Source of the DNA: an uncultured Methanosarcinales archaeon
GTDB taxonomy: Archaea > Nanobdellota > Nanobdellia > Woesearchaeales > JACJVW01
Reading direction: 5' to 3'
Length of the DNA stretch: 59,968 nucleotides
Assembly: GCA_964473285.1 (NCBI GenBank)
Contig: CAYYOI010000004.1
Span: 1 to 59,968, forward strand
The notes beneath the pieces are model-generated. The model did not search any database. It was not told where the DNA came from and worked only from the letters and a program-made list of their open reading frames with translations. Shown here one piece after another: positions 282-57,658 of the stretch (position 1 is its first letter; every line of letters starts with the position of its first letter). The translations under genes and the position numbers were made by a program.

Positions 282-3200
282 TTGAAAGTTTTATCAATCA
301 TAAGATATATTCTTATCCTAGTTTGTTGTTTAATCTCAGTATCAGGAAATACATCTCTTGAGTCAAGAGATTTTTGTGATTGTCTTGATTATGTAAATAA
401 ATCTCATGTCTTTTTTGAAAAAGGATGTAATTATACAATCCCTGATAATCTTGATAACTTGACTTGTTATGACTCCAATCTAACTGTTGTTTCCAATTTG
501 ACAGTCTTACTTTCAAATGAGTCTATTGTGTCAATTAGTAATGAATCAATTAGCACAAATGTTTCTAATGTTTCTTCTTCAAATCTGACAACTTTTTCCA
601 ATCAGTCTAACCAAACTTCTTCTATTATAAATGGATCTACAGATTCAATCATGTCGAATGCCACAAAGCCTACTATCATGATTGAGAAAGTACAGCTTCC
701 TGCTCATGTTGGAGAACCTGTCAATTGGGTTTATCGTGTTAAGGTTAACGGATCTTCTGATTCTGTAACAATTCCTCTTTCTGATTTGCCAAATGATGCA
801 AGGAATGTAGTTCTCGTACCTTATTCAAAAGATAAGGCTTACTTGGATAAGAGAGTAAGTACAATGTCTGGTTCATCTCATGTGCTTTCTATCCCTTCTC
901 GTAATAGTAGTGGTAATGAGTATTCAGTTATATATGAAACTCCTGCTCCGCATAAGCGTGAAGAAACCCAAAGAAATTCTTTAGGCATATCTAAAGGAGT
1001 TGTTGTTCATTCTGATGTATCTTATCACTATTATAATATTTCGGTAAATACTGATATACCTGAAACCGCTTCTGATAAAATTTCTTTTTATTGGTATGAT
1101 GGTACAAAGCGTGTCAATGTTTTAAGGGATAAGCGTTTTGATGTCAAACTGATTGATATAGATAATGATAATCTTATTGAAAAAATATCATGGGTGGTTC
1201 CCCAACTTTCTGAACAACATTTTGAGATTATTCTCAGGAGCTTGTCTTTTAGTACTCAGTCATCTCACGTAACTTCAAATTGGAGCATTCTTTTTGATAT
1301 GAACCATTCAGATTTAATTTCGTTTGAGGCTTTGTCACCTTTGCTTTCATTTGAAGGCCTTTATTATTTTGATTCCGGTTGGTCACAGATTACTGATTAT
1401 GAGGTATCAGGAAATACAGTGACAACTGAATGGGATCATTTAAGATCAACCAGAGGAAAGGTTGTCTATGAAGTTTTAGGTTATGACACTTTTTTTGTTA
1501 ATGTATCTTCTGTGAGTGGTTCAGAAATTGTCCGTAGTCATTATTATTATGAACCAGTAGGAAATTCAATATTGAATCTTGATTCTCCTATGTTCTCTTA
1601 TCGCCTCTGTTCATTGAATCAGAGTTTTTCATTTTGTGATGCTGAGAAGGGAGAACCAGGATATGATGGCTACGATATCATGACTAATTATACTGGTTAT
1701 ATAAGGTTACCTTCAAATGTTTCTGTCACTAGTGCATCAATGAATCTTCGTTCACTTCATACTGATCCAATATCTGAGTATGAACACCCAGATGGAATTC
1801 CTTCTTCTATAGTTCATCGGGCAGATTTGAGTTCTTCTTTTGTAGATGGGTTCATTGCTGCCACTCCTTATGATATTGTGGGTTGGTCAAATGAAACTAT
1901 TCTCTTTGAACATTCAATTTCTGGTCTTAATGATTTTGTTCCAATGGACATTTCTTTGCTCTTGGGTGATGAAATTATCGTTGCAACAGATAATGGATTA
2001 CATATATTCGCATCAAACTATTCCTCCTCCCTTGATAAAATTGATTCTTTAGACGGTGAATTTCTATCTGTGGCAAGTCAGTTTAATATTCCCTCAGCCG
2101 AGTTCAATAATACTTTCTCAGAGGCTTCTTCACTTCAAGAAGTATTTGGGGATAGACTTGTGAGTTTTAATATTCCTTGGGTCTTTAATACTTCAGATAA
2201 AAGATGTTTCCTTTCTGTTAAATTGAACAAGCATGGAAATCCAGATTCAAAGCTTCAGTTTGGATCAGGCAATATTACTCCTGATATGGTCTCTTCAAGT
2301 GATAACTTTATGACCTCGCCTGGTGTTCCTGGTTCTTTTACCTGTCTTGGATGTGAAACCAATAATATCTCTTTTGATTTTTCTAGTCTTGGCTTATCTG
2401 ACTTTTCAGCGGAAAGCTGTTCCTTGTCTCTTCCTTTATCTGCAAGTGGAGCACATGGCAATCTCTTGAATGTTTCCCTTGGTTCATTTTCTCAGACTAT
2501 TGATAGCTCTTCTGTAGGAGCTACGTCTTTAGATTCTTTTTCAACCCCTACTACTGCCACAGAATTTGATGAGTTTACTACTAGTTATTTTTATACGCAT
2601 GTATTGCCAGATGGGATTGGAACCTGTAGGCTTTCCATTGCGTTACAAAAGCTTTCGACAGATTCAGGACTTCTGTTGAGAGCCAACGGTAATGAATATC
2701 CTGTCAATACTCAAGGATTGCCATCAAATGTAATAGACAGATCCAATTTTACTTCACCAGACTCTATCTTGGATTTGAAGAGCCCTGTAAAATATTCTGG
2801 AATTGACCCAATCTCAGCTGAAACATGTTTTGTTGACACATACTTCACTTATGTGAATTCAACTACAGCAAATCTTACATTTTCTCTCAATGGCAATGTT
2901 TATGATATTGATAAGTCTCAGATAACTTCATCTGCATTCAAATCATTCAGTAAGACCGGTGCAGAAAATGTATCTTCTGATCTTCTTACAAAAACGTCTT
3001 TATCAGAAGATGGGGAACAAATTGATTATTATTTAAGTGGATTGTCAATTCCATCTGATTTAGAAGCAAAGGAATGTTTTGTTAAGGTCGGAGCATGTTA
3101 TGAAGGTTCAGAAGAGTCACTTGGAACATTAAAATTGAGTTTATATGGAAAAGATACAACCTTTGCTATCCCTACAGATTCGCTTTCCGAATGCTCACAA

Positions 3201-6200
3201 TCATCATTTTCTTATGTTTCTGTTCCTTGTCAGGATATAACCTCTAGTGAAAAACTTCAGTTTTATTGCGAAGGATGTGATTCCAATAACTTTTATAGGA
3301 TTCTTTATGATAATTCATCCTCCTCATTCAATTCATATTATTGGGATGGATTTGGCGATTATGAAAAATCATCGCAAGATTATCTTGTCAGTGTTTATAC
3401 AAATAGTTCTTTTGATTATAGTGTCTCTAGAAAACAAATTGAGTGTTCTGATGTCGGAGGAACTATTACTTTTAATTGTGAAGGATGTAGTTCAAATAAT
3501 TCTTATCACATGATGAGCGATGGTTCGAATCCAGGTTTCAGAATCTTTTCAAATACTTCTCTTGTTTATGGATGGGGGCACTCTGAATTACCCTGTGAAG
3601 AACTTTCAGCTGATTCAAACATTGGATTTTCAGCTAATAACCAATTCCGTATCCTTAAATCAGATGATATAGTGATCAATAAGATGGAATGGCTTACTGA
3701 TGATTATACACCTGTTGATCTTGATGTTCCATGCGATATCATAAACAGTGCTGATGAACTTTCCATTTCCTGTCCAGAGTGTACTTCTACCGATTCTTTC
3801 TATCTTTATCGGACAGATGAGCAATCAGGTCATACTGGAGATGCTTATCCTTATACAGATTTGAGTTTTTTTGTTGAAAGCAATACTTCTCTTGATTATT
3901 CCAAAGTTCAAATCCCAGTCAATTGTTCACTTGAAGACCCTGTGTTCTCCTGTCCTGAATGTACAAGTGATGATCATTATAATATCCTTTTAGGAGGTGC
4001 ATCCGGTAACACCTCTTTCTCTTTAGACAATGGTTCAACATGGAGCAATACTGCTTTTGATGCAGGAATTGGAGTGTATGTCTATGGTGCAAGCGATTCT
4101 GATGATATTGTTGTTGCTGATGCTAATGATAATGTTTCACTCCTTAACACAAGCCTGCACACACAATGGACCCTCTCATTCAATTCTCGTGTAAATGATA
4201 TTGCTATTGGTGAAGTTGATGTGGAATCAATAGGTAACGAAGTTCTTGTTGCAACCCAGAATGGCTTATATCTTTTTGATTCGAAGGGAAAGAACATTTG
4301 GAATTATTCAAAAGGTGCAAATACTGTTTTTATACAAGCCCTTGATGCGAGACAAGAAGCATATGCTGGACTTATAAATAATTCCTTGTACAAATGTGAT
4401 GCATCAGGTTGTCATAGTATTGCAACTTTTTCAGATGAGATTACTTCAATTTTAACTGGTGATTTTCATTCAGAACAAGGCTCTGAAATTGCTATCTCTT
4501 TTGATTCCGGACTCTTCAGTGTTTATGATTCATCCATGACAGCTTTAGAAACTCTAGATTTTAAGTCTGTAGTTTCTTTTACTGGGGGAAGGTTAATTGG
4601 TGTAGATCGTTCACAGTTGTTGGTGTCACACCTTAAAGGAATTAGTGCTTATGATTTTTCTCAACCAGAGAATGTTTCTTTACTTATAAATGATAGTGTT
4701 GTTTGGTCCCATATGGGTCTGCTAAGAAATGAAACCATTGATAATTTTGCTTATGCAATAAATATTAGTAACTGTTCTCCTTGTTATGTTCCTTTTGATA
4801 TTGAAACAGATTCTTCTGTCCCACTTCAACTATCTGATATTGATGTGAGGTTTGATTATAATTATAGCCTAGACTATACAGATGATTATACAAAATGGCT
4901 GAAAACATCTGATTTTATTGCAGGTTCACAAATACCTAACAAAGCAATCAAGATTGATTATACTTCTCCTTCGTTTCCTTTGTATGTCCAATATATAAGC
5001 CGTGAAGATCCTAATGAGGACAATTTTGTGTATGATTCCTCATCATTCTGGTTCAGAGACTCATACTGCCAGGGTATTGATACATTAGCTTATCTTGGAT
5101 ATACTTTACTCAATGGTTCATCTTTTCATTGTGATGAAGATTATTTTATCAGTGAAGAAGGTTCTGATTTTTTATGGGTTACTGGTGAGAAAGCTGTTCC
5201 AGTGGAAGTTTTAGTCAGAAATGGTTCAAATGATGCTATGAATTATTATAATATTACTTTAGAAAGAGGTATTGGTCATACTTCAGACTCTTTTCATAAT
5301 GTCAGTTATTCAAGTGATATTAATGAATCCTTCGTTGGAAATTTTGTAGATGTTATTGTAGATACAGATTCAGATGGATCATATGATCTTTTGTATCAAA
5401 ATTTATCTGGGTGCGAAGGTACAAGCTATAGAGTTTGTATTGAAGACCTCAATTCAAATGGTGTACCTGATCAAGTGATAACTACTACTTCTTTGATCAG
5501 TCCAGAAAATCCTTCGGTAAAATATAGGGTGATAGGGTATACAAATGAAATTCCAGAAATAACCTCTGTTGATATTAAACCATCTGGTGATAGATATTAT
5601 TTTGATACTGTATTATTCAATATTACTATAGCTGATTTTGAAAATGACATAAGGCAATTGACATTATATTTGAATACTTCTGGTACTGGCTGGTTTAATG
5701 CTGGCACAGAAACTACATTGACTGATCATGTCATTATTCCTGTGTTACTTAATTCTTCTATGGATGGTGAGTTGTCCTATCGTATTGAATATGCAGATTA
5801 TTCAGAGGAAGCGATTCACCTTGTGAGAAATACCACTACAAATAAAGTTTTCAATGTCAGTAAACCTTCTTTGATACTTGATATTCTTACTGATGATTAT
5901 GAAAGGATAAACCAAAATAATGTGTATGAAGATCATATAATTGCTAATGTTACAAAGGAAGGAACATCTTTTGATAATTATTCAAAAACAGATCTCCTTT
6001 GTGAGCTTTACATAAATACCTCTGAGGGTTACAGGAAACACTCTGATATAACAACAATTAAAAAGGGTCTTTGTTCATTTAATCTTAATAGTGATTCTCC
6101 TTATTCAACCGGCAACCACGATTATTATGTAAGGGTTAGGGCAGATGACCGTTTCTATCCTGCAACCTCTGAGGTGAAGAATGTTTTTATCTATTCTGGA

Positions 6201-9200: not shown

Positions 9201-12200
9201 TTTAGTGGAGGCACTCTTGGGACCTACATGAAAACAAGATCAATGACTACACATAATTCTACAAAAATAACAACTTCACGTTTAGATTCTTCTGATCAGA
9301 TTCTAAGAGGTGAAACTTACTCTTTTTTCAATGGCACTTATGATAATGCATCAAAAGAACTTTTGCAACGCTTTATAGGACAAAGATCCTCATTTAATCC
9401 CAGATCTATCAGAATTGTTGAAGGATCTGAAGAAGTACCTTTTATGTCTGAAGGATTCACTAAATATAGGTCTGATTTTAGTGAGTGGGATCAGGGCATT
9501 AATTGTAAGGCCTCATATTCCTCCGCATTAACATTGACACAGGAAGGTACACATCCGGATTATTGTAGGTATGAATCTAACCTTCTTTCTATACCTATTA
9601 AAGAGGATCTGACAGTGGCCTTCCAGGTTAAAAATGTTAGTATTGGTAGTTGGAAACTTGCTTTCAGGGATGAAGATTCAAAATTACATACTATTGGGGA
9701 ATCAGCATCTGATGGATTATTTACCTTTTCTCTTGAAGATTATGTAGGTATGAATATAACACGTTTTGCACTTTATACACAAGGGTATGATTCAACTGCC
9801 ACTTTTGATCTTTTGGAGGTGGTTGGTGAATCGGGTACTCTTACTTGGACATTAAATGGTACTACTGCTGGGGGCTCTGACCGTAATTATACAATATACT
9901 TTAAAACTCATGAAGATCTTGATACTGATTTATTTTCATTGGGGATCTTACCGGTATATCAGACAGAGATGTATGAGAGAGCCCGTTTTATGAATGGAAA
10001 TACAAATACACTTGTATACACTACAGGGAATGATAAACCAGGGTCTCTGGCAAATATGCTTGATAATCTTGTTACTGATGAAGTCATAACTTCTTGGACT
10101 CGTACAACTGATCAAGGTGATGTACAGAATATACATAAGAATAGTTCTTCATATGGGATTCTTCTTTATGAAAGCAGTTCTGGGTTTACAGATTCAGAAT
10201 CTAATGCTTATACAAGTCCTGAACCCGAAACACTTGCAGCTATAGCAAATTTCCTTGATCAGGGAGGAAAGCTAATATACATTGACAATCGTCTTGATTA
10301 TGATTCAACAGGGCTTTCTGATTTATTCACTTATACCAGTAATACCTGGAACCCATCAACGCATTACTGTAGCCCATATGAGGGGTCTTATCAGGCTTGT
10401 GGACAACCAACAAACGAAACACCTGACACCTTTTATCCTGCTGATAATAATAGTGTGGGGTTTTTGATATTTAATGATCAGATGGTTCACTCATTTACAG
10501 GGGGCGATGGTGAATCATGGATTACTGATGAAAGTGGAACACATTCTCTTATGGTTTCAGAAGGATATTCAACTTTAACCACTGCGCCAGGTGATAGTTC
10601 AAACAGCGGTTTCTCTAAGCACCTCAGTTTTACAGGTAAGCTTGCTGCGCCATATGATCGATATATTCCAACTACCCGGCTTTATGGCCTTGTTCCTTTG
10701 GGTTACACAGATAAGCCTTATTTACAGGTAATCTCTATGTATGCTGATACTGTTGTTGAGGTCTTAAACTCTTCAAATAAAATAATAGATACAAAAACAC
10801 TTGATGAATTTGAACTCTGGCGTACAGGCGCACTTGAGTCTTATCTAGGAGATACATTCATTGTAAATGCTTCTTCACCTGTTCTTGTATATCTGAGCGA
10901 TAAGCCTTATCTTACTGATCCTGTTCCCAGTATTCTGGGTGCCAACAAGCGATTCATGTATTATGATAATGGAAATTTCTTATATCGTGCATTAAACGGT
11001 ACTACAACAGGTTATATCTATGATTCTGTGGGAGAGGTTGATAGCTTCACTATCTCAGAGGGTGAAACCTACAAACCATTCTTATTTCCGGGAGTGTATG
11101 AGGTCCAGACTGATGCGCCTATTGTTATAGAACCTTCCTTATATAGTGGAGTTTCTCGTGTGGTGGATTCATCAGGGTCTGGTATAGGCAAGGAATTTTC
11201 AGTTTCAGCAGAAGCCCTTACTCTAGTAGGTCATGGGAATACCTCTGTTCATTTGAGTAGTGAACCTTCTAAAAAATCAGAGAATTATGATCATATAGGG
11301 TATGAGTTTTATACGTATCTTAGTGGTTCACCTAATATTTTCTCAACTTCACACGATACAACCGTGACAATATCTAATCTTGATTCTGCCGGTTTAGTCA
11401 TAGAAGAAGATGAGCTTCACCTACCACTTAAGGCCAAACTTAAGACTTATTCTCCAAAGACAAGACTTCTTTTGCATTTTGAGGGTTCACCTGGAAAAGC
11501 ATATTCTTTCTATGATAGTTCAGAAACTCAGGTTGCAAATGAATGTAATGTTACTTTAACTTCTGATTCACGATTTGGCACTGCTGCTGATTTTAATAAG
11601 GGTTTGATTGAGGTTGATGCCCTTGATTTCGGGTCAAATTATACTCTTGATTTCTGGATTAAGCATGGGTCTGAAAACCAGACATTTGTATCACAGTATG
11701 AGAATCAGAATCAGGCATTCAATATTAGCTGGTCTTCTGGTCTGCAGGCAGAGTTGATTGCCGGTGAGAATGTGATATTACTTAAGGATGAAAACCCAGA
11801 GTATACTGATTCATGGTATCATGTTGCATTAGTGCATGAAAATTCAACATATAAGCTTTATCTGAATGGTTCATTAATTGATAGTGTTGAAAGTCAGGCT
11901 TATCCTGAACCAGATGCACCTTTTATAATCAATCCAAGGGGTTTAGTTGATGAATTCCGATTTGTAGAAAGTGCTGACGAACCGCTGGGTGGGCTTTATG
12001 GTACTGTTTCTCCAGGATTCTATAGAATCAGTGCGGACAAGCCTATAGGTATTTATGATGGAAACTCACAGACTGAGAGTTATTCTGTATCATATGGTAA
12101 TGATCTTTGGGTACATGTACCATCATGGCCTGGTCATCCTGGTTCACTTTTCATTAATGCAATTGAGGATTCAACTGATGTAACTGTTACTGATCTTACA

Positions 12201-35624: not shown

Positions 35625-37615
35625 GATTACTTAACCTCATAGGACTAATTGTATTGCTTATTCTTACTTCTTTCTCTTATGCTGCTTGTGAGGGGTCTTG
35701 TGAAATTGAGTGCGGTGACGGAAGATGTGATGTAGGTGAGAACTCCTATAATTGTCATGAGGATTGCTCTCGTTTTCCATATGATTTCAGCACAAATTTC
35801 TTGGATCCAACCTTTACTAAAGGGAATAGATCATTTTATCTGGAATTTCAAAACCGTATTAATTCAACATTATTCTTGACTATAGATGCAAGTTCATTAG
35901 AGGATTTTGTCAAATTATCTGTTAAAAATCTCACTCTTGTTCCTTTAGCATCGAAACGTGTTAATTTCACTGTGTCTGTTCCTCGTGATACACCTCCAGG
36001 AAAGATAAGAGGTGAATTCAAGATTGGATATGAAGATAGTTTCAAGTATATTCCCCTTTCTTTTACAGTCATGAATCTTCGTAATACACTTGTGGAGCTT
36101 GATGTATTGGCTCTTACAAAGGAGATTGAGCCTGATGGTGAACTCACTTTCTTTTCAGAGATATATTCTTATGAATCTGAGGCCATAAATCTTTCTCTGT
36201 TCTATACACTTGAAGACATAAGAACTGGTGAGATTATCCATAAATTTAATAGGAACATTACAATCTTTTCCTCAGAAACCTTTATTGATTCTTTAAATCT
36301 TAGTGATCCTGATCTTTTTTCATCTCCTATAAAGGAAGGGCAATATCTTGTAGAGGTCTCAACTTTATTTGACGATGATAATATTTCTTCGTCAAGTGAC
36401 TTTTTTGTTTCAGTTCCTTTCTGGACGCCTGCAAGAGTAAGAATTGTTTCGGTGTTAGGAAGTATCTTGTTTCTTGGGTTTGCGGGTACTTTTTTCTATT
36501 TTAGGTATCAAAAATGGAAGCTTGAGAGGATGAGGTATATCCCTCCAGATACAAAAAAAATACCTAAGAAAGGGCCAGATATGTTTCATGTTGGTAAATT
36601 ACCTGAAATAAATAAACAGGCTTATTTTAATCCAAGAGATCTTACAACACATTGCTTATGTGCAGGAAGTACTGGTTCAGGAAAAAGTGTTACAGCTAGT
36701 GTTATCGCTGAGGCAGCATTGCTTAATAATATTCCTGTGGTTGCATTCGATCCTACCAATCAATGGACTGGATTTGTTAAGCAATTGAAAGATAAAAATA
36801 TTCTATCTTATTATAAACAGTTTGGATTGTCTGATTCTGATGCCCGTTCTTTTAAAGGATTAATCTACACTGTTGATAATCCTGAGGTAGATATCAATAT
36901 CAAGAAATTTATGAACCCTGGGGAGATAACTGTGTTTAATCTCAGCAATCTTAAGACTGGTGAATATGATCAGGCTGTGAAACGTATAATTGATAAGATA
37001 TTTGAACTTTCATGGCCAGAAACACATGATCTTAAGGTTTTTGTAGTTTTTGATGAATGTCACCGACTTCTTGAAAAGTATGGTGGTAAGGGAGGATATG
37101 TTGCTCTTGAAAGAGCTTGTCGGGAGTTCAGGAAATGGGGAATAGGTCTTTTGATGATTAGTCAGGTAAGTGCAGATTTCAAGCAGGCAGTTGCCGGGAA
37201 TATATTGACTGAGGTACAGATGAACACAAAGAATGTAGAGGATATCCAAAAGATTGCTCAAAAGTATGGAACTCAGTTTTCCACAAAAGTCACAAGACAA
37301 GGTGTAGGTGTTGCAATGGTCCAAAACCCAAGGTATAATGATGGAAAACCTTGGTTTGTGCAATTCAGGCCACCTTTACATGACCCTCACAAAATCTCTG
37401 ATGAAGAACTTAATCTTTATAGTCGTTATTCATCCACTCTTGATGAATTTGAAGCTAAACTTGAATCTGTACCTGATAATGTGGATGCCAGGGATGCTAT
37501 GATGGAACTGAAGCTTACCAGGAACAAACTTAAGGAAGGACATTTTAAGATGGTCGATATCTATATCAAATCACTTGCAGATAAGGTAGATAAAATTTCA
37601 AGAGGTATTAAGTAA
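35621..37615 (+). CDS. membrane-anchored HerA/VirB4-like ATPase; short paralog of the giant protein's C-terminus
   Basis: Signal peptide, CGDGRCDVGENSYNCHEDC, two Ig-like domains, PFWTP-TM-ERMRYIPPD, GSTGSGKS, VFDECH, REFRKWG; ATGA overlap with the giant gene. Confidence 0.92.
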   Translation: MRLLNLIGLIVLLILTSFSYAACEGSCEIECGDGRCDVGENSYNCHEDCSRFPYDFSTNFLDPTFTKGNRSFYLEFQNRINSTLFLTIDASSLEDFVKLSVKNLTLVPLASKRVNFTVSVPRDTPPGKIRGEFKIGYEDSFKYIPLSFTVMNLRNTLVELDVLALTKEIEPDGELTFFSEIYSYESEAINLSLFYTLEDIRTGEIIHKFNRNITIFSSETFIDSLNLSDPDLFSSPIKEGQYLVEVSTLFDDDNISSSSDFFVSVPFWTPARVRIVSVLGSILFLGFAGTFFYFRYQKWKLERMRYIPPDTKKIPKKGPDMFHVGKLPEINKQAYFNPRDLTTHCLCAGSTGSGKSVTASVIAEAALLNNIPVVAFDPTNQWTGFVKQLKDKNILSYYKQFGLSDSDARSFKGLIYTVDNPEVDINIKKFMNPGEITVFNLSNLKTGEYDQAVKRIIDKIFELSWPETHDLKVFVVFDECHRLLEKYGGKGGYVALERACREFRKWGIGLLMISQVSADFKQAVAGNILTEVQMNTKNVEDIQKIAQKYGTQFSTKVTRQGVGVAMVQNPRYNDGKPWFVQFRPPLHDPHKISDEELNLYSRYSSTLDEFEAKLESVPDNVDARDAMMELKLTRNKLKEGHFKMVDIYIKSLADKVDKISRGIK

Positions 37616-38655
37616 TGGCACAACAAGATGATCGAGAAAAGGATGTTTTAACGAAGGAAGATTTCAACAAGCTTGAGGCTAGTGAGTCGAAGAAAAGCAT
37701 ATTCAAGAGAATCTTTGGAAAAAAAGAAGAAAAGAAAACAGAAAAGAAAAAGGAAAATGACTATGTTGCCCCCATATCTTTTAATGAGATGATTAATGAG
37801 TTCTATAACCTTAATGAGAGGTTTGATAACTTGCTTGTTCAGGTAGAGAAACAGGCCGGCCGAATTGAAATGGTGGAAGAATCAAAGAAAGCCTTTGATG
37901 AGAAACTTGTTGGTATCACTACTCAAATGGGGGAGTTAAGATCAAATCTTGTTTCACGTGAAAGATTTTTTGATAGAATGGAATCTGAATTTACCAGTAT
38001 GAAACAGATTGTTTCAAAGGCGAAGCCAGAAATACTGGATATACGGTTTAAACAGATAAATAATTATCTCCATAAGCTATATGATAGTCTCAATCATTTT
38101 CAGACTAAGATGAATGAAAGAGGTGCTTATCTTAATGAATTGAATTCACAATTATCTGAGCTTCATAAGGTGCGTTCAGAAGTAACTTCTCTTCGTGAAG
38201 AAATGGAGAAAATCAGTGTTGTTAAAGAGACTAAAAAATATGTGGACCAAAAAGCAGGAGAGATTGAAAAACTTTACTCTAACATAGTTGATAAATTTTC
38301 AACAATGGAAAAATCCATTGATAGGGTTAAGTCACTTGAGGATTCCTTTAATAATATGAAAAAATCAGTTGATAGACTTAAGCTTCTTCCAAAGATTGTT
38401 GCCACTAAAAAAGAAATGGATACATTATATTCCTTTATTGAAACTCTGAAATCTGATGTTGATCTTGACCTTTCAAAAGTAAAAATTTCACCAGAGGTCT
38501 CAATTGATGCAGGAAAAGAAATGGATGCATTGATAGCCTGGGCCAAATCAGAAATCTCAGCAGGGAAAAACGAATCTGTTATTGTATCAATGGCAGTTTC
38601 GAAAGGATGGAAAGAAGACCTTGTCAGGCAAGCAATCAAACTTGTTCGTGAGTGA
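37615..38655 (+). CDS. cytoplasmic coiled-coil protein with a small C-terminal helical domain
   Basis: Long heptad-rich E/K region; N-terminal SIFKRIFGKK; C-terminal LIAWAKSEISAG..IVSMAVSKGWKEDLVRQA; TAATG overlap. Confidence 0.85.
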   Translation: MAQQDDREKDVLTKEDFNKLEASESKKSIFKRIFGKKEEKKTEKKKENDYVAPISFNEMINEFYNLNERFDNLLVQVEKQAGRIEMVEESKKAFDEKLVGITTQMGELRSNLVSRERFFDRMESEFTSMKQIVSKAKPEILDIRFKQINNYLHKLYDSLNHFQTKMNERGAYLNELNSQLSELHKVRSEVTSLREEMEKISVVKETKKYVDQKAGEIEKLYSNIVDKFSTMEKSIDRVKSLEDSFNNMKKSVDRLKLLPKIVATKKEMDTLYSFIETLKSDVDLDLSKVKISPEVSIDAGKEMDALIAWAKSEISAGKNESVIVSMAVSKGWKEDLVRQAIKLVRE

Positions 38656-41600
38656 TGTTTCGTTTTTTATTTAGCTGGATTTTTGTATTTATTATAATAG
38701 TTAGCCCTGTTTTAGGTTTTGTTGAACCATATGTTAGAGGATTACCTGGAAACACATCAATAAGTGGACCTGACTCGATTGTGAAATACAAAAAAATCTA
38801 TTTTGATTCCTGGGAGAATGATGTTATTTCTGGAGGTCTTGCTAATCTTAATCATACACAAAGAGAGACCAGTTATGAATACTATCTTCTTTTTAATGAA
38901 ACAAGATTTCCAGTAAATGGGTCATTTTATTTTTCAGTTTCAGGGCGTGATCCTCTTCTAAAAGATGCCGCTATTAGGCTCTTAAGGGATTCAAGGAGTT
39001 TCTGTGAACCCCTCTCAGGAGATTTTTCATGCCACTATGAGGATTTTCAGGCGTTTGAGATTCTTAGATATTCCAGAGCTGCCAGAGTTATTAATGGGAG
39101 TTATGCTGATATTGTCATTAACTTGAGTACTGCAAATATAACCTCTGGTTCTTACATAAGCTTAGGTCATTGCGATCATTCGTATGGTGATTTCAATTGT
39201 GAGACAAATAAAAATGATATGCAGCATGAGGTATACGGTGGAGTTAAACAAGGGCTTCTTATATATAGTTTATGGAATGCATATTCTGTTACTGGGAATA
39301 AGACTATAAGGGAATTGGCTCTTAATTATACTATGGGCCATGCATCTGATTGTGATGTGTGGGAGGAAGATTATTCTTGCGCAAGCAATGAGAGTCAAGG
39401 ATACATGACATTAGGTTATTTTGAGGCATATCGTAACACAAATAATCTCACTTATTATGAGAAGGCTCTCAAGCTTGCCAGCGCAGAAGCTGGAGCGCTA
39501 GGTGGCCTTTCACAGTTAAAGGCTTATCAATTGACCCATGATGAAAAATATCTGACACGTGCCAGAGAAATAATCTCTTCTCTTGATACTTGTGGGGAAT
39601 GTTCTTCTGAAGATATAGGGCAGCTAATGATGCTTTTTTCTGAGGCATATCTTACTACTGGTGAAGATCAATTCATACTATCTTTACAAGATCTATTATC
39701 TACTGAACCAAATGATTGTAATGCCTTTAGCTCGAATTTATCATGTGAGGATCCAGCAGGACAGGGACTTTATGCTATTGGCTTTTTAGATGCTTATCTT
39801 ACATTACCAGGTCAACCAACCTTTACTAAAGTGAAGGTCAAGAATGCATCCTATAATTCGTTAATGACAATTGATGCTGACCTTTATGGATATTTACCTG
39901 ATCCAATGTTGCATTATAAGAATATATATTCCCCTTCCTGGAATTCTGTGCCTCTGGATAATGTATCAATCGATACAACATCTCTTGGGGAGGGAATTAT
40001 TGAGTTTTTTTTCAATTCTTCAAGAGGTATAAGGTACCCTGCAAATTCATTACATCTGGTATTACCCCATGAGTTTGAGACTTTCAGGAGAAATGCACAA
40101 CTTCTATCAGAGCAGGATCCAGTACATTTCTGTGGTCCTTTTGGGACAAATAAATATTCTAATTATAGTTGTAAGGAAGAAGATATGCAGGGATGGATGA
40201 TACTCTCAAGGGCTTCCTCATTTTTTTTCCATAATTCCTCGAAAGATATATTCAAAGACCAAATCTTAGAATTTAGCCAGTCTTATATTGATGATAATAA
40301 TTTCTCAAGGAGTACATGTGAGTTTCTGGATTCTGATTACGTCTGTGAAGATATTAGCGAGAATCTTGCAATTGATAATTTTTGTGAGCCCGGCCCTGTA
40401 AGGCAATCTATGATGGCATCCTCATTCCTTTCAATATATGCTGATTTTGATAAATCGGTCAAACAAATTCCGCTTAATTATCTTGAACATCCCTCAAGTG
40501 ATTGTTTTCCATTGAAAGGAGATTTTAATTGCTCATCACCTGAGTATCTTGCACTTTCTTATTGGAAAGGGTATTGGATGACTGGTGAGCCACTTTATTA
40601 TTCTGTTGCTTATAATCTTACCCAGCGGGTTGATAATTCTTTGATGTCCGCTATTTCTTTGCTTAAAGGCTATGAGATCACTGGATCTGAAGATTTCTTA
40701 TCCAAGGCAAATATAATCTTGTCAAATTTTAGTGATTTGTGCGTAAATACAAGTTGTGAACCAGAATTCTTGGGTGAAAATATTTTGGCCTATTGGGAAG
40801 CTTATAGAATAACTGCTAACATGACTTATGCATATGATGGTTATCTAAAGGCAACATCCTTAACTGATGGACGCCTTGAGGACTGTAATCCCAATTCCCC
40901 TTCTTATGATCCATTGAATCCTGAGACACTCGACTCTTTTAGATGCTTTACTCCTGATACACAAGGTCTCTTGACTTTTGCTTTTACTAAAGCAGCGCAG
41001 AATTATTTCCTGTCGTCAAATCACTCTTTTTCAGTGTCAATGAGTCCAGTAGAAAATATAGGATATAATTCAAATCATACGGTTTCATGCAGTTTTGAAA
41101 ATACAGGGAATGTAAGTGTAAAGAATGTTTATCTTTCACTTAATACCTTGCAAGATGTTGTTTCAATTGAAACTACAGGAACGCCTTTTGCTGGACATAG
41201 GGTTTTGTTTAATGAGATTGTTCCTGGTGAGAGTCTGAATGCAACATGGACTCTTAACGCAACCTCAGGAGGTAAGCAAACTATAAGTTGCCAGGTAGAA
41301 GAAAATGTTGTACAAAGGAGCCATGAAGTATTTGATATACCGCCTACTCTTCAATTTTCCAGTTCACCTGTCTCTAACTGGCATTTTTCAGATACATTCA
41401 CTAAAGAATATTCTCTTTTAAATCCGTATGATTTTAAGTTGTCAAATGTTGTTTTGGAACTAAATGCATCAAATGGTCTTGTTGTTGAACCAGATAAAAT
41501 TCATTTTCCCATATTATACGAAAATGCGACTTTTAATGTGACTTATTCAGCATATTCTCCTCTTTCTTCTAACACAACAATAAGTTTTGCTTTTAACTAT

Positions 41601-44246
41601 AGTGATGGCTCAGGCTATTATAATGAGAGTTTTATATTGTATGATTTGTTTCTTAATACTTCATTTAATTTCCCGTCTGAAGTCTCTTTGTATGATGATT
41701 TCAGCCTGGATTTTTGGTTTGATTATCTTGAAAGCTTTGATGCAGAAAACCTTAGTGTTGATTTAGATTATCCTTCTTCATTAACTCTTGTGAATATTAG
41801 TGTAAACGCTTCAGTCATCAATTATTCAGATTCGGATCTTTTAGTATCCAACATGTCTGGTTCTGTAAACTGGTCTTTTTTATCTAATGTTACTGGAAAT
41901 TATTCTTTGAATCTTAATCTAAGTGCGCCCTTATATAGTTATAAAGAATCATATGGATTCAATCTTTCTGTGCTTTCCAACGCTTTTGATGTAAGGGTAA
42001 GTTCTCCTTTAGATTTTTTTGAATCAGGAGTTTCTGAAAGATTCAATGTTACACTTGTTCTCAACAGCACAATCTCAAATGAACTTGATAATGTGACTAT
42101 CAATACTTCATTTACAGAGGGGTTGCGTCTTTTGGATGAAAGAGTAGAAACTGTAAATGTAATGTCATATCCTAATAATTCAGAATTGCTTGCAAAGGAT
42201 AACTTGTCTATAGAGGGAGATAGTTTTGCTTTTAACTTCAGTAATGGAGATATACTTAGTGTTGAAATGTTTCATGATTCAAATGAGACTGTAAATCTCT
42301 GGTGTGGGTCAAAATTAATATATGAAATGAACTTGTCAGGTTTTTCAGTATATAATGGCACTTTCAATTCAAGTTATTTGGTCATAAATTCAACCGAAAA
42401 TTTCTCTCTTGATTATTTTGCGATAAGGAATAATGTAACAGTAAATTACACAGACTCTACTTTTAAACATGTCCCCCCTGATAGTAATATCATAACTCAA
42501 TGGACTTTTCTTGTTAACTCTAGTTCTCCTAAAGAGAATATAGAATTTAGAATAAGCTCTTTACAAGGATCCTTGGATACTGGATCGTTGATTATTAATC
42601 GTAAGAAAGTGGAGGATAGCTCTTCGGATTCACCAAAAAGTGCAAGCTCTTCTTCACCACCTCCAACTAATTCATTTTACCCACATTTCAAGGAATATTC
42701 ATATTTATCTTATAATATTAGTTCTTATCTTATTAACCGTTCTTTCTTGTATCAGATAGTTCCTTCAACCAATCATAATTATTCAAAACAAATGGCTTCG
42801 TGCCTTTCGGTATCAAGGTTATACAGAGATCTTGAAACTGTCAATCTAACCCTTAATTATGAGTGTGAAAATTCAACTTCTTTTTTTATAGTTTATGATG
42901 AACTAAATGGGAACGTATATGTGAATCTTAGTGTAAATACTACAGATCATTGTACTTTCTGCAATTCAGGTAGATTTCTTTATTTTAACCGAACAATCAA
43001 ACAGGGTGATAATTTTTCAATAACTTATAGCTTACAAAATACAAGTGAGACTTATAAGGCACCCCTCGATTTTGATTTCATTCGACCCCTTGTTTTTGGT
43101 TATCCAAATGAAAGCGTGGCCTTAGAAATTGCACGTTTAAATGATCTTCACTTTATACTGTCATATTTTGATAATAATGAAAGTGAAATTACAAATGAGA
43201 TTGATAATAATTCTGATGTGGATGTGCCTACAGGAAATTCAAATTCGTCTGTTAAGACAAATGGGACCGGTACAATAAAAACAGGACCTCAGAATTCAAC
43301 CTTGGACAGTGGATTTTTGAATCAGTTCATCATAAATTTTTATGATGAGTTGAGGGGATATATTCTAGGTCTGGTTATGATCATCCTTGTTATTGGAATT
43401 GGATTTTTTATGTATCATAAAAATCTTTTTGAGATAGCAAATACTTATGTAGGTAAATCCCTTAAAAAATTAAAAAGGAAGTACTTGAAACTTTTTGGAC
43501 CAATAATCCAATTTTTTAGTGATTCCTCTTATATCCTGCGTCATTACTGGAATGATTTGGTTTATCCTTTTTTTGTTTATAGCAATAAAAAAGTTGTAAA
43601 CAAACCTGATTTTATTGGTGTATTTCTCGCAACACACGAAAAAAAACTTAGTCGGGATATCTCCTTGATTATGAAATATCTAATACATGAAAATCTCTCA
43701 GATGCTTATAATCTTATTCAGAGTGTAAAAACCCGTATCGCAAAGCTTTCGAAATTTTCAAAATCAGCAAAAAAACTTGAGAAAAAACTGAATTTTGTTC
43801 TTCTTCTTTATACTCATGTGAATTATACTATAAGAATAAAGGAGTTATCAAAATCAATAATTAAGGCTTATCTATCTAGGCGTCCTTTTAATTCGCTTAA
43901 ATCTGAACAGGAGCGTCTTGAGGTTCTTCGTGATTCAGTATATGATCAGCTCAAGAACCATTCAATGTTTGCATATTTTAAGACATTTAAGAACAATGAA
44001 TCTACGCCTCCCAGTAAATCAATAGATTTTACATCATTGGATGCTGAATTTTATTACTTACTCAATGAATTGAGGTTTTATCTTAATGAGAATGACTTTG
44101 ATAGTGCAAAAAATACTCTGAATACATTGAAAAAGGTTTATGGGCAGGTTATTGAATCATTCAAATACCGACCGGAAAAAAGAAGGCATAAAATTCTTTT
44201 ACATATCTACAAGGATCTTGTGAATGAATATAATAAAGCAGCTTAG
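38655..44246 (+). CDS. ~1,863-aa membrane-anchored surface protein: two Cys-stapled alpha/alpha-toroid (six-hairpin glycosidase-like) domains, CARDB-like Ig domains, TM helix, basic cytoplasmic tail
   Basis: Signal peptide; repeated AYxxTGxxxYxxxA helical hairpins; FENTGNVSVKNV CARDB-like motif; TM GYILGLVMIILVIGIGFFMY; TGATG overlap (GTG38652 is an alternative start). Confidence 0.88.
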   Translation: MFRFLFSWIFVFIIIVSPVLGFVEPYVRGLPGNTSISGPDSIVKYKKIYFDSWENDVISGGLANLNHTQRETSYEYYLLFNETRFPVNGSFYFSVSGRDPLLKDAAIRLLRDSRSFCEPLSGDFSCHYEDFQAFEILRYSRAARVINGSYADIVINLSTANITSGSYISLGHCDHSYGDFNCETNKNDMQHEVYGGVKQGLLIYSLWNAYSVTGNKTIRELALNYTMGHASDCDVWEEDYSCASNESQGYMTLGYFEAYRNTNNLTYYEKALKLASAEAGALGGLSQLKAYQLTHDEKYLTRAREIISSLDTCGECSSEDIGQLMMLFSEAYLTTGEDQFILSLQDLLSTEPNDCNAFSSNLSCEDPAGQGLYAIGFLDAYLTLPGQPTFTKVKVKNASYNSLMTIDADLYGYLPDPMLHYKNIYSPSWNSVPLDNVSIDTTSLGEGIIEFFFNSSRGIRYPANSLHLVLPHEFETFRRNAQLLSEQDPVHFCGPFGTNKYSNYSCKEEDMQGWMILSRASSFFFHNSSKDIFKDQILEFSQSYIDDNNFSRSTCEFLDSDYVCEDISENLAIDNFCEPGPVRQSMMASSFLSIYADFDKSVKQIPLNYLEHPSSDCFPLKGDFNCSSPEYLALSYWKGYWMTGEPLYYSVAYNLTQRVDNSLMSAISLLKGYEITGSEDFLSKANIILSNFSDLCVNTSCEPEFLGENILAYWEAYRITANMTYAYDGYLKATSLTDGRLEDCNPNSPSYDPLNPETLDSFRCFTPDTQGLLTFAFTKAAQNYFLSSNHSFSVSMSPVENIGYNSNHTVSCSFENTGNVSVKNVYLSLNTLQDVVSIETTGTPFAGHRVLFNEIVPGESLNATWTLNATSGGKQTISCQVEENVVQRSHEVFDIPPTLQFSSSPVSNWHFSDTFTKEYSLLNPYDFKLSNVVLELNASNGLVVEPDKIHFPILYENATFNVTYSAYSPLSSNTTISFAFNYSDGSGYYNESFILYDLFLNTSFNFPSEVSLYDDFSLDFWFDYLESFDAENLSVDLDYPSSLTLVNISVNASVINYSDSDLLVSNMSGSVNWSFLSNVTGNYSLNLNLSAPLYSYKESYGFNLSVLSNAFDVRVSSPLDFFESGVSERFNVTLVLNSTISNELDNVTINTSFTEGLRLLDERVETVNVMSYPNNSELLAKDNLSIEGDSFAFNFSNGDILSVEMFHDSNETVNLWCGSKLIYEMNLSGFSVYNGTFNSSYLVINSTENFSLDYFAIRNNVTVNYTDSTFKHVPPDSNIITQWTFLVNSSSPKENIEFRISSLQGSLDTGSLIINRKKVEDSSSDSPKSASSSSPPPTNSFYPHFKEYSYLSYNISSYLINRSFLYQIVPSTNHNYSKQMASCLSVSRLYRDLETVNLTLNYECENSTSFFIVYDELNGNVYVNLSVNTTDHCTFCNSGRFLYFNRTIKQGDNFSITYSLQNTSETYKAPLDFDFIRPLVFGYPNESVALEIARLNDLHFILSYFDNNESEITNEIDNNSDVDVPTGNSNSSVKTNGTGTIKTGPQNSTLDSGFLNQFIINFYDELRGYILGLVMIILVIGIGFFMYHKNLFEIANTYVGKSLKKLKRKYLKLFGPIIQFFSDSSYILRHYWNDLVYPFFVYSNKKVVNKPDFIGVFLATHEKKLSRDISLIMKYLIHENLSDAYNLIQSVKTRIAKLSKFSKSAKKLEKKLNFVLLLYTHVNYTIRIKELSKSIIKAYLSRRPFNSLKSEQERLEVLRDSVYDQLKNHSMFAYFKTFKNNESTPPSKSIDFTSLDAEFYYLLNELRFYLNENDFDSAKNTLNTLKKVYGQVIESFKYRPEKRRHKILLHIYKDLVNEYNKAA

Positions 44247-50833: not shown

Positions 50834-50834
50834 T

Positions 50835-55867: not shown

Positions 55868-56257
55868 TCACCTGTAACTTTTCTGTCTTTTTGCCCTGGC
55901 ATTGCCACGGGTGTTTGGTTTTCGGCTTTCTCTTCTCCTTACGTCTGCGACAAGCAGTTTCCTGTCATAGTCAAGAAGGATCTCTTCGTTTGATTCGTCA
56001 AATTCGACAAGGGCACGGGAGAGTGCGAGACGTGAGGCATCTGCCTGGCTCATGACGCCGCCACCGTTGGTACGGATGGATACATCAATCTTTTTTGCGT
56101 TCTCTCCTATGAGGATGATGGGTTCCATTATCTTCATCTGTGCGTATTTTGGTGTGTAATTTTCAAGAGGTATGCCATTTATGCTTACTGAGCCCTTGCC
56201 TTTCTTGAGGCTTGCTCGTGCGATGGCTCTTTTCCTTTTTCCTGAGGTCGTAATCAT
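55868..56257 (-). CDS. rps9: 30S ribosomal protein S9 (uS9)
   Basis: [31 protein letters not shown]; ATGA overlap with L13. Confidence 0.97.
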
Positions 56258-56661: not shown

Positions 56662-56662
56662 T

Positions 56663-57022: not shown

Positions 57023-57023
57023 T

Positions 57024-57569: not shown

Positions 57570-57574
57570 CGTGA

Positions 57575-57658
57575 TGCGAGGGACGAGGTTTGAACTCGCG
57601 CAGGCACTAAGCCACTAGGCCCTCAACCTAGCCCGTTTGACCACTCCGGCACCCTCGC
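57575..57658 (-). tRNA. tRNA-Leu(GAG)
   Basis: Acceptor GCGAGGG/CCCTCGC-A, D-loop AGTGGTCAA, anticodon arm CTAGG-TTGAGGG-CCTAG, long variable arm, T-loop TTCAAAC; CCA not encoded; no intron. Confidence 0.96.

What the first reader, a model, noticed from the sequence alone, without database searches (positions are those of the whole stretch)
282..44246. Candidate new system: 44-kb operon coupling a ~1.3-MDa surface protein to a membrane HerA/VirB4-like motor
Seen in sequence: four genes joined by ATGA/TAATG/TGATG overlaps. An ~11,400-aa extracellular region (adhesion, lectin-like and propeller domains) is joined through one TM helix to an intact P-loop ATPase. Established: HerA/FtsK/VirB4/TrwB-family ATPases form hexameric DNA or protein translocases, and the membrane-bound member CedB serves DNA import in the Sulfolobales Ced system; many DPANN archaea are host-attached. 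Inference: this is a contact-dependent apparatus that binds a host or prey cell and powers uptake or delivery of macromolecules (DNA as nucleotide source, or effectors). No pilin, VirB or Ced channel genes are visible in the window.
Basis: partly seen in the sequence, partly recalled or inferred. Interest (0 to 1): 0.95.

Follow-up and report, generated by a model that had tools for sequence, protein, structure and literature searches.

The report
Giant ATPase-anchored archaeal surface protein operon
A small symbiont-type archaeon carries a real four-gene operon whose 1.3-megadalton surface protein ends in a cytoplasmic motor ATPase, but this design is already described in related archaea as SPEARE giant proteins and its function is still untested.

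Summary
Window 282..44246 holds four co-directional, overlapping genes: an 11,780-aa protein (signal peptide, about 11,370 extracellular residues, one TM helix, C-terminal P-loop ATPase), a 664-aa paralogue with the same stalk, TM helix and ATPase, a 346-aa coiled-coil protein, and a 1,863-aa surface protein with two (alpha/alpha)6 toroid domains. The ATPase belongs to the HerA/FtsK superfamily (DUF87) and is nearest to HerA; the topology puts it in the cytoplasm.

The cassette occurs three times in this genome, 7.4% of the assembly. A second assembler gives the same fusion. Relatives are widespread in DPANN archaea.

It is not a new system. It belongs to the published SPEARE-type giant proteins of Nanohaloarchaeota (Hamm 2019; Reva 2023). 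Those papers already describe the TM plus ATPase fusion and the second ATPase gene downstream, and already propose DNA uptake or effector secretion.

New here:
- a coiled-coil partner gene follows the ATPase gene in 59 of 69 evaluable loci;
- giant and mini ATPases of one locus tend to be each other's closest relatives;
- the toroid protein belongs to a small family;
- no VirB4 N-domain or VirB6 was found, so a type IV secretion system is not supported.

Function remains inference. Interest is moderate.

The parts
282..35624 (+). Giant gene, 11,780 aa from TTG 282 (alternative GTG 189 gives 11,811 aa): signal peptide, about 11,370-aa ectodomain, one TM helix, cytoplasmic ATPase
288..344 (+). 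Hydrophobic core of the N-terminal signal peptide of the giant protein
   Evidence: (Kyte-Doolittle 2.48), followed by GNTS
3888..4391 (+). Beta-propeller-like stretch (aa 1,203-1,370), below Pfam's threshold
   Evidence: Beta-prop_ACSF4, E 2.4e-7, 30.9 bits against a cut-off of 133
11622..11930 (+). Laminin_G_3 / concanavalin-A-like lectin domain (aa 3,781-3,883)
   Evidence: E 1e-10, 42.4 bits, cut-off 27.6
13776..15638 (+). PKD domains (aa 4,499-4,585 and 5,040-5,119) on either side of an alpha-helical toroid-like domain (aa about 4,571-4,910). This lies inside the aa 2,900-6,300 stretch that has no counterpart in the two paralogous giants
22482..22688 (+). Big_7 bacterial Ig domain (aa 7,401-7,469)
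   Evidence: E 5.5e-11
27321..27515 (+). Big_1 Ig-like domain (aa 9,014-9,078)
   Evidence: 39 bits, cut-off 34.9
34458..34514 (+). Single TM helix of the giant protein, preceded by PFWTP and followed by the K/R-rich RYIPPD motif
   Evidence: AF2 helix 24-57 of the model
34515..35621 (+). Cytoplasmic HerA/FtsK-type ATPase domain plus C-terminal three-helix bundle; Walker A 34686-34709, Walker B 35061-35084, REFRKWG 35142-35162
35621..37615 (+). Mini paralogue, 664 aa: signal peptide, Cys-rich module, Ig-like stalk, TM helix (36443-36499), same ATPase (65% identical; Walker A 36665-36688, Walker B 37040-37063)
37615..38655 (+). 346-aa cytoplasmic coiled-coil protein of a conserved family of unknown function that follows the ATPase gene in most loci
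38652..44246 (+). 1,863/1,864-aa surface protein: signal peptide, two (alpha/alpha)6 toroid domains with conserved Cys pairs separated by a beta-sandwich, a long beta-rich region, TM helix (43338-43394) and a cytoplasmic helical tail of about 280 aa

Best explanation
This is a SPEARE-type locus of a DPANN archaeon. Named nearest homologues are Woesearchaeota, Nanoarchaeia and Nanobdellati MAGs. The giant protein is exported by its signal peptide, and its ~11,370-aa Ig/PKD/lectin/propeller ectodomain reaches out from the cell to bind another cell's surface. A single TM helix ties it to a cytoplasmic HerA-like RecA-fold ATPase. By family precedent such ATPases work as ring oligomers that pump a polymer.

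The 664-aa paralogue is the same stalk, TM helix and ATPase without the long arm. I infer that it fills most positions of a mixed ring, so that one ring does not have to carry six 1.3-MDa arms. The coiled-coil protein is inferred to be a cytoplasmic partner of the ring. The fourth protein carries glycan-enzyme-like toroids and is inferred to act on or bind the partner cell's envelope glycans.

Most likely job: ATP-driven movement of a macromolecule across the symbiont's own membrane at the contact site. I put DNA uptake first and protein export second.

Shown: gene structure, topology logic, ATPase family, intact catalytic motifs, conserved gene neighbourhood, paralogy. Inferred: oligomer, mixed ring, partner binding, substrate, direction, host contact.
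For: Family membership:
- ORF2 matches a Nanohaloarchaea SG9 protein with locus tag AQV86_02330 (P0070; 41% identity, 89% coverage, E 7e-140). It also matches proteins of Ca. Nanohalococcus occultus and Ca. Nanohalovita. These are the organisms whose giant proteins are described in PMC6642349 and PMC10266531.

ATPase:
- DUF87 scores above Pfam's cut-off in both genes.
- A PDB profile search puts HerA 4d2i first (E 2e-10).
- The AF2 model has pLDDT 92.1.
- Foldseek puts HerA first (3.7e-12).
- VIA-align gives HerA Z 25.3, DndH-C 23.9 and VirB4 22.4.
- Walker A, Walker B and the REFRKWG region are invariant in 42 of 42 aligned homologues.

Topology: signal peptide plus one TM helix, with the positive flank on the ATPase side.

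Selection pattern: the ATPases of the three cassettes are 59-65% identical, the ectodomains only 23-33%.

Neighbourhood:
- The cassette occurs 3 times in the genome.
- An ORF3-like gene lies within 1.2 kb downstream on the same strand in 59 of 69 evaluable loci. ORF3-like hits make up 79 of 262 ORFs near an ATPase gene, against 2 of 514 ORFs elsewhere.

Giant and mini ATPases of one locus are sisters with SH-aLRT of 95 or more in 8 of 16 tandem loci.

ORF4 toroids: AF2 pLDDT 87.2; best folds are GH9, GH76 and cellobiose 2-epimerase.
Against: - No substrate, channel or oligomer is shown.
- A single TM helix per subunit is a thin basis for a pore.
- The fold cannot separate HerA from VirB4 sharply (Z 25.3 against 22.4).
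- The C-terminal bundle shows no DNA-binding fold.
- Strong ATPase matches (E below 1e-90) were found in only 11 of 40 relatives searched, and not in the 2 same-genus genomes, which gave weak HerA-type hits only.
- Tandem ATPases occur in only 12 of 69 evaluable loci and ORF4-like genes in 8 of 69, so the mixed ring and the toroid partner cannot be general features of the family.
- ORF3-like genes were not detected downstream in 10 of 69 loci.
- Sister pairing of giant and mini ATPases is unresolved or absent in 6 of 16 tandem loci, including two of this genome's own three. The tree is the quick one, not the careful one.
- The toroids may be binding modules only; catalytic residues were not examined.
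Confidence: 0.5

Rival explanations
1. It is a reduced type IV secretion system. The giant protein is a 'straw', and the VirB4/TraG-like ATPases push effectors into the host (the proposal of Reva et al. 2023 for SVXNc_0300).
For: The fold resembles the VirB4 C-terminal domain (4ag5, Z 22.4), TrwB (Z 17.6) and TcpA (Z 16.6). Pfam TrwB_AAD_bind scores 28.5 bits (cut-off 20.5), but over only 46 residues around the P-loop. Two ATPases sit in tandem, as T4SSs have several. The proposal is in PMC10266531 section 11.
Against: No CagE_TrbE_VirB (PF03135) domain was found in ORF2 or in the giant's C-terminus at E 0.01 or better, nor anywhere in the 97%-complete genome. No TrbL/VirB6 was found in the genome. 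NCBIfam VirB4 and TraD models score 15-30 bits against cut-offs of 325-590. The sequence profile prefers HerA and lists no VirB4 chain at E 1 or better. The precomputed Pfam list of the Ca. Nanohalococcus occultus homologue P0056 holds no PF03135 either.
Confidence: 0.13
2. The ATPase moves nothing across the membrane. It is a cytoplasmic organiser. ATP-dependent ring assembly, scaffolded by the coiled-coil protein, clusters, anchors or releases the giant adhesins and the toroid protein at the contact site (inside-out control of adhesion).
For: There is only one TM helix per subunit. A conserved coiled-coil partner of no known family is present. The ORF4 homologues detected keep their own TM helix and a cytoplasmic tail. 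The TM plus ATPase module carries very different ectodomains, on proteins from about 550 to 11,800 aa, as expected of a general anchor.
Against: In the structures that match best, this ATPase fold belongs to polymer translocases (HerA, FtsK, VirB4, T4CP, EccC). No precedent known to me has a HerA-type ring used only as an anchor.
Confidence: 0.2
3. It is a defence or surface-sensing system of the HerA type (like Sir2-HerA or DUF4297-HerA), triggered from outside.
For: The best structural and PADLOC matches include defence HerA proteins.
Against: The PADLOC hits are weak (54 bits or less) and cover the P-loop core only. No Sir2, DUF4297 or nuclease effector gene lies beside the ATPase genes. 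The ectodomains are made of adhesion-type domains.
Confidence: 0.04
4. The fusion is an assembly or gene-calling artefact.
For: The genome is a short-read metagenome assembly of 114 contigs and holds three similar cassettes.
Against: The open frame is uninterrupted. A second assembler gives an identical 57-kb contig. The fusion recurs in the two other cassettes, in 4 relatives as open frames of 3,903-8,155 aa, and in 25 database proteins of 5,516-7,878 aa. Published proteomics exist for a family member (PMC6642349 section 8).
Confidence: 0.02

Closest known systems
SPEARE-type giant surface proteins of Nanohaloarchaeota (Ca. Nanohaloarchaeum antarcticus NAR1_1133, 5,998 aa; SG9, 8,553 aa; Ca. 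Nanohalococcus occultus SVXNc_0300, 9,409 aa, with the downstream ATPase SVXNc_0299)
   Same: Signal peptide; huge adhesion-domain ectodomain with laminin-G; TM helix near the C-terminus; conserved cytoplasmic ATPase; a short second ATPase gene directly downstream; homologous ATPase sequence (PMC6642349 section 8; PMC10266531 section 11).
   Different: This one is longer (11,780 aa) than any family member I saw in papers or searches. It comes from a non-halophile-type DPANN lineage in a microbial-mat sample. The cassette is present three times. An ORF4-type toroid protein sits in the operon. The ectodomain content differs.
HerA (archaeal HerA-NurA; bacterial defence HerA)
   Same: Best sequence-profile and fold match. 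Walker A, Walker B and the RK-G/SQ motifs align.
   Different: There is no N-terminal HAS-barrel; a TM helix takes its place. NCBIfam HerA equivalogs score 17-38 bits against cut-offs of 800-970. No nuclease partner lies beside it.
VirB4 / type IV coupling proteins (TrwB, TcpA, DotL)
   Same: Same superfamily fold (Z 22.4, 17.6, 16.6 and 14.9). Membrane-anchored ATPases of contact-dependent transfer systems.
   Different: No VirB4 N-domain; no VirB6/TrbL in the genome. Scores lie far below the family cut-offs.
CedB / CedD of the Sulfolobales Ced DNA-import system
   Same: Archaeal membrane-associated ATPases of the same superfamily, tied to DNA import (abstract of PMC11868833). CedD is the best NCBIfam hit.
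   Different: The hits score 46 and 24.8 bits against cut-offs of 600 and 700. None of the window ORFs I scanned with Pfam matched a channel or pilin family; no CedA model was searched.
FtsK/SpoIIIE, Streptomyces TraB and T7SS EccC/EssC (their biology is recalled, not tested here)
   Same: Membrane-anchored ring ATPases of this superfamily that move DNA or proteins without a full T4SS. Folds listed at Z 17.0 (FtsK) and Z 16.3 (EccC).
   Different: Pfam FtsK_SpoIIIE scores 23.7 bits, just under its cut-off of 24. There is no gamma or wHTH domain, one TM helix instead of several, and a giant ectodomain.

Membership tests
SPEARE-type giant surface proteins (Hamm 2019; Reva 2023) | Very long protein, mostly extracytoplasmic, with an N-terminal signal peptide | tested here: met
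   11,780 aa; signal-like segment at aa 3-21; about 11,370 aa before the TM helix
SPEARE-type giant surface proteins (Hamm 2019; Reva 2023) | At least one laminin-G domain and multiple adhesion domains in the ectodomain | tested here: met
   Laminin_G_3, PKD, Big_7 and Big_1
SPEARE-type giant surface proteins (Hamm 2019; Reva 2023) | TM helix near the C-terminus with the C-terminal region in the cytoplasm | tested here: met
   TM helix at aa 11,393-11,411; 5 K/R after it against 2 before it. This is hydropathy and the positive-inside rule only; no dedicated topology predictor was run
SPEARE-type giant surface proteins (Hamm 2019; Reva 2023) | Conserved cytoplasmic ATPase domain homologous to that of the named SPEARE proteins | tested here: met
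   ORF2 against the SG9 AQV86_02330 protein P0070: E 7e-140, 41% identity; Ca. Nanohalococcus and Nanohalovita proteins at about 1e-146
SPEARE-type giant surface proteins (Hamm 2019; Reva 2023) | Second, short ATPase gene immediately downstream (Reva 2023) | tested here: met
   ORF2 overlaps the giant's stop codon (ATGA) and is 65% identical in the ATPase
HerA/FtsK superfamily (Pfam DUF87, PF01935) | Pfam score above the gathering cut-off, Walker A and B, RecA-like core | tested here: met
   63.9 and 42.3 bits against 23.2; motifs; fold
HerA proper | N-terminal HAS-barrel domain before the ATPase core | tested here: not met
   In the model a TM helix (residues 24-57) leads straight into the core. 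HerA equivalog models score far below their cut-offs
HerA proper | NurA-type nuclease partner | not tested
   No nuclease lies among the operon's four genes. The genome was not searched for NurA
Type IV secretion system (VirB4 / T4CP based) | VirB4 N-terminal domain (PF03135) | tested here: not met
   No hit in ORF2 or in the giant's C-terminus. 0 matches in the own genome, 96.9% complete
Type IV secretion system (VirB4 / T4CP based) | VirB6/TrbL-type channel protein | tested here: not met
   PF04610: 0 matches in the own genome. Distant or unrecognised analogues are not excluded
Type IV secretion system (VirB4 / T4CP based) | T4CP family match (PF02534 / PF10412) | tested here: inconclusive
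   TrwB_AAD_bind 28.5 bits over 46 residues at the P-loop; T4SS-DNA_transf 18.2 bits against 20.1
Ced DNA-import system | CedB/CedD equivalog score | tested here: not met
   24.8 against 700 and 46 against 600 bits
Ring (hexameric) translocase | Forms a ring oligomer with a central pore | not testable with these tools

The most novel reading that the evidence does not exclude
The TM helix, HerA-like ATPase and coiled-coil gene pair form a stand-alone membrane translocase, largely confined to DPANN archaea and distinct from T4SS and Ced. Giant and mini subunits co-evolve because they build mixed rings: one long adhesive arm per ring, with the other positions filled by mini subunits. The ring imports host DNA, or exchanges proteins, through the cytoplasmic bridges seen at DPANN-host contacts. 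The toroid protein opens the host's glycan layer.
Probability: 0.15. Interest if true: 0.85.

Novelty: new member of a known kind. Interest (0 to 1): 0.45.

Why it matters
How DPANN archaea take what they need from their hosts is an open question, and the SPEARE-type giant proteins are the main candidates, so far without any mechanism shown. This locus is an extreme case: three cassettes take 7.4% of a 1.7-Mb genome, and the protein weighs 1.3 MDa.

The comparison around it gives concrete handles:
- an ATPase that is HerA-like rather than a T4SS part;
- a coiled-coil partner that follows the ATPase gene almost everywhere;
- a short paralogue that co-evolves with the giant one;
- a glycan-enzyme-like companion in one lineage.

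These can be tested in the nanohaloarchaeon-haloarchaeon co-cultures that already exist. As a discovery of a new system it does not stand, because the kind is published.

Tried and rejected
- **Translation.** I used the ORF listing and scripts instead.
- **Complex prediction.** Complex prediction of the ATPase cytoplasmic domain (residues 58-414 of A1) with ORF3 returned no verdict (score 0.00, mark 0.32). It counts neither for nor against binding.
- **RNA evidence.** The look-up of sequencing runs listed no RNA holder. Only one DNA run holds the stretch, probably the source, so expression is untested.
- **ORF4.** The protein atlas gave no usable hit. Pfam gave only a sub-threshold C5-epimerase C-terminal match. 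PADLOC and NCBIfam gave none. tblastn with ORF4 found nothing in 15 relatives' loci; jackhmmer later found 12 homologous ORFs.
- **ORF3.** Pfam, PDB profile and atlas searches gave only generic coiled-coil or helical-bundle matches.
- **Size range of the family.** The search of proteins of 5,500-17,500 aa listed 25 proteins, the longest 7,878 aa. It did not list this window's own giant or the published proteins of 8,553-9,409 aa. It is therefore incomplete and cannot prove a size record.
- **Largest archaeal protein?** I considered this and rejected it. Passages of the West-Roberts preprint (10.1101/2023.11.21.568195) say that a few archaeal proteins exceed 10,000 aa, mostly in Asgard archaea.
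- **A second TM helix at aa 4,930-4,948?** Rejected.
- **Alignment time-out.** The MAFFT run timed out and was repeated with faster settings.
Full report
**Observation.** The window is a whole 59,968-nt contig (C4) of a 1.71-Mb, 114-contig archaeal genome that is 96.9% complete. Four + strand ORFs fill 189/282..44246:
- a giant ORF of 11,811 aa from GTG 189, or 11,780 aa from TTG 282, which follows a purine-rich GGGGAGAGGGTG;
- a 664-aa ORF;
- a 346-aa ORF;
- a 1,864-aa ORF (1,863 aa from ATG 38655).

The giant frame has no stop and the window has no N. From TTG 282 the product weighs 1,308,580 Da, has pI 4.3, and carries 367 NxS/T sequons and 174 Cys.

**Anatomy of the giant protein.** It starts with a signal-like hydrophobic segment (aa 3-21). 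Its one convincing membrane helix is at aa 11,393-11,411, with 2 K/R in the 15 residues before it and 5 K/R after it. With an exported N-terminus, this puts the last ~370 residues in the cytoplasm.

A third hydrophobic stretch (aa 4,930-4,948) closes a helical toroid-like domain. That domain is weakly similar to the secreted 471-aa protein encoded downstream (22% identity, E 7e-7), and PKD domains flank it. I read it as a buried helix, not a membrane span.

Pfam recognises only a small part of the ectodomain:
- Laminin_G_3 (aa 3,781-3,883);
- PKD (aa 4,499-4,585 and 5,040-5,119);
- Big_7 (aa 7,401-7,469);
- Big_1 (aa 9,014-9,078);
- below threshold, a beta-propeller-like stretch (aa 1,203-1,370) and an NHL repeat.

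**The other three proteins.** ORF2 is the giant's last ~640 residues in miniature: signal peptide, Cys-rich module, Ig-like stalk, PFWTP, TM helix and ATPase. It is 49% identical to the giant's C-terminal part overall, 65% in the ATPase and 26% in the stalk. ORF3 has no hydrophobic segment and is a charged coiled coil.

ORF4 has a signal peptide, a TM helix at aa 1,562-1,580 and a ~280-aa cytoplasmic tail. An AF2 model of its first 800 residues has pLDDT 87.2 (39-row alignment). It shows two helical toroids (about aa 101-384 and 476-784) separated by a beta-sandwich. Cysteines at 11 positions are invariant. Foldseek's best matches are (alpha/alpha)6-barrel glycan enzymes:
- GH9 xanthanase 6fhn, E 3e-6;
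- GH76 mannanases, E 1e-4, target TM-score 0.5-0.58;
- cellobiose 2-epimerases.

Whether the toroids are catalytic was not examined.

**The ATPase.** Both copies pass Pfam's DUF87 (HerA central domain) cut-off, at 63.9 and 42.3 bits against 23.2. All NCBIfam equivalogs (CedD, HerA, VirB4, CedB, TraD, TraB) score far below their cut-offs.

A 42-sequence alignment keeps Walker A, Walker B (DE) and the REFRKWG/SQ region invariant. A profile of it finds HerA 4d2i first in the PDB (E 2e-10), then other HerA proteins and YjgR, then DotL (0.004) and FtsK (0.06). It finds no VirB4 at E 1 or better.

The AF2 model (pLDDT 92.1) is a long TM and juxtamembrane helix, a RecA-like core and a C-terminal three-helix bundle. 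There is no HAS-barrel. Foldseek ranks HerA proteins first. VIA-align gives HerA Z 25.3, DndH-C 23.9, VirB4 C-domain 22.4, TrwB 17.6, FtsK 17.0 and EccC 16.3.

The domain is therefore a HerA-clade member of the HerA/FtsK superfamily. Fold alone does not separate it sharply from VirB4. PADLOC gives only weak HerA hits and no defence partner.

**Three cassettes in one genome.** tblastn and ORF maps show the same four-gene order on contigs C11 and C7:
- C11: giant 9,850-9,862 aa, then 664-, 483- and 1,824-aa genes.
- C7: a giant split by a 100-N scaffold gap into open frames of 7,548 and 4,455 aa, then 662-, 380- and 1,923-aa genes.

Together the three cassettes span 127,151 nt, 7.4% of the assembly. 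The ATPases are 59-65% identical between cassettes. The ectodomains are collinear but only 23-33% identical. Residues ~2,900-6,300 of the window's giant, the lectin/PKD/toroid part, have no counterpart in the other two.

Logan's contigs of run X1 (a microbial-mat metagenome, probably the source) give one 57,423-nt contig across window 26000-45000 with no difference. Misassembly of the fusion is very unlikely.

**Elsewhere.** ORF2 has 179 database homologues with E of 1e-3 or better. The named ones are from Woesearchaeota, Aenigmarchaeota, Nanohaloarchaea, Nanoarchaeia and Nanopusillaceae, and one is from Hydrothermarchaeaceae. A few lie in bins labelled Methanosarcinales or Heimdallarchaeota, which I did not verify.

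Among 40 relatives searched, 11 have strong matches (E below 1e-90). Four of them are on open frames of 3,903-8,155 aa. The two same-genus genomes gave only weak HerA-type hits.

The TM plus ATPase module carries many different ectodomains. Proteins of 726-2,070 aa gave 194 hits, with CarboxypepD_reg, PQQ-propeller, NHL and NPCBM-associated domains. Twenty-five proteins of 5,516-7,878 aa also carry it. That last listing missed this window's own protein, so it is incomplete.

**Conserved neighbours.** I translated 893 ORFs from 96 loci and ran jackhmmer with ORF3, ORF4 and the ATPase. In the 79 loci, 69 have at least 1.2 kb of sequence after the last ATPase gene. Of those 69:
- 59 have an ORF3-like gene within 1.2 kb downstream on the same strand;
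- 12 have tandem ATPase genes;
- 8 have an ORF4-like gene.

In three of the ten exceptions (L034, L086, L093) an ORF3-like gene lies elsewhere in the locus: on the other strand, or between the two ATPase genes.

As a control for coiled-coil composition, ORF3-like hits make up 79 of 262 ORFs within 1.5 kb of an ATPase ORF, but only 2 of 514 other ORFs. The family also has conserved motifs, not only heptads.

The ORF4 N-terminal 1,000 residues found only 69 representatives with E of 1e-3 or better among 1.84 billion. It is a small, lineage-restricted family.

In a quick maximum-likelihood tree of 57 ATPase domains (L093 left out as a duplicate of L013), the giant and mini copies of one locus are sisters with SH-aLRT of 95 or more in 8 of 16 tandem loci, and of 87 or more in 10 of 16. 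In Nanohalobium the mini copies instead pair across two genomes. Two of this genome's own cassettes are unresolved.

**What is known.** Passages of Hamm et al. 2019 (PMC6642349, section 8) describe nanohaloarchaeal SPEARE proteins of up to 8,553 aa. These are mostly extracytoplasmic, carry laminin-G and other adhesion domains, and have a TM helix near the C-terminus. Their conserved intracellular region was read as a type III restriction-enzyme domain.

The same passages report similar sequences in Woesearchaeota, Aenigmarchaeota, Micrarchaeota and Altiarchaeales, and proteomic detection of the protein. They suggest that imported DNA could be degraded there.

Section 11 of Reva et al. 2023 (PMC10266531), which I read whole, re-reads that domain as a VirB4/TraG-like ATPase facing the cytosol. 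It notes a second such ATPase gene directly downstream and reports a 9,409-aa member. It proposes a type-IV-like 'straw' that injects effectors.

Passages of PMC11001535 repeat the pore idea and report cytoplasmic bridges by cryo-ET. My search for further work found only Reva 2023 and an Omnitrophota paper. ORF2's match to an SG9 protein, and to Ca. Nanohalococcus and Nanohalovita proteins, ties this locus to that family by sequence.

**Mechanism.** What is shown:
- an exported adhesin-like arm;
- a single TM tether;
- a cytoplasmic, catalytically intact HerA-like ATPase under strong conservation, while the arm diverges fast;
- a nearly constant coiled-coil neighbour;
- a short paralogue that tends to co-evolve with the long one.

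What I infer: the ATPases form a ring at the membrane, as their relatives do. In loci with a mini copy the ring is mixed, which would avoid packing six megadalton arms on one ring. The coiled-coil protein docks on or scaffolds the ring. The complex moves a polymer across the symbiont's membrane where the arm holds a partner cell. I rank DNA import first, because the HerA/FtsK relatives act on DNA and, from recall, DPANN lack nucleotide synthesis. Protein export comes second.

A full T4SS is not supported. There is no VirB4 N-domain and no VirB6/TrbL in the genome. A purely organising, non-translocating role for the ring remains a serious rival, because one TM helix per subunit is little to build a channel from.

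**Verdict.** It is a new and very large member of a known kind, not a new system. The additions made here are:
- HerA rather than VirB4 placement;
- the conserved coiled-coil partner;
- the giant/mini co-evolution;
- the toroid companion family;
- the triplication.

These are leads, not proofs.

Noticed in passing
window 49865..55408 (- strand): Six overlapping co-directional genes: O-methyltransferase, type I phosphodiesterase/nucleotide pyrophosphatase, UbiA prenyltransferase, xylose-isomerase-like TIM barrel, a 263-aa ORF not scanned, and a myo-inositol-1-phosphate-synthase-like protein. From memory this gene set resembles the 'ebo' cluster of bacteria and algae, which would be unusual in a DPANN archaeon.
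   Followed up: no
window 44290..47207 (- strand): Two secreted-looking proteins converge on the operon's end, neither with a Pfam match. One is a 471-aa protein weakly similar to the toroid-like domain inside the giant (aa 4,571-4,910, E 7e-7). The other is a 501-aa Cys-rich repeat protein.
   Followed up: partly
own genome, contigs C1, C5, C6, C8, C13, C23, C27, C30, C38, C53: Besides the three cassettes, the 1.7-Mb genome holds eleven more open frames of 1,597-6,051 aa. None carries this ATPase.
   Followed up: no
window 282..35621, aa ~2,900-6,300 of the giant: About 3,400 residues have no counterpart in the two paralogous giants. They hold the lectin, PKD and toroid-like domains and look like an insertion of a different adhesin module.
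   Followed up: partly
L069, L096, L099; L028, L033, L082, L094; L074: Close homologues of the ATPase gene lie on contigs binned as Hydrothermarchaeota, Methanosarcinales and Heimdallarchaeota. L028 has the same four-gene order and the highest identity (66%). Either the family reaches beyond DPANN or these contigs are mis-binned.
   Followed up: no
window 55868..59811 (- strand): An archaeal ribosomal-protein and RNA-polymerase subunit D-type gene run, judged by eye from the translations and not scanned. It agrees with an archaeal chromosome rather than a mobile element.
   Followed up: no
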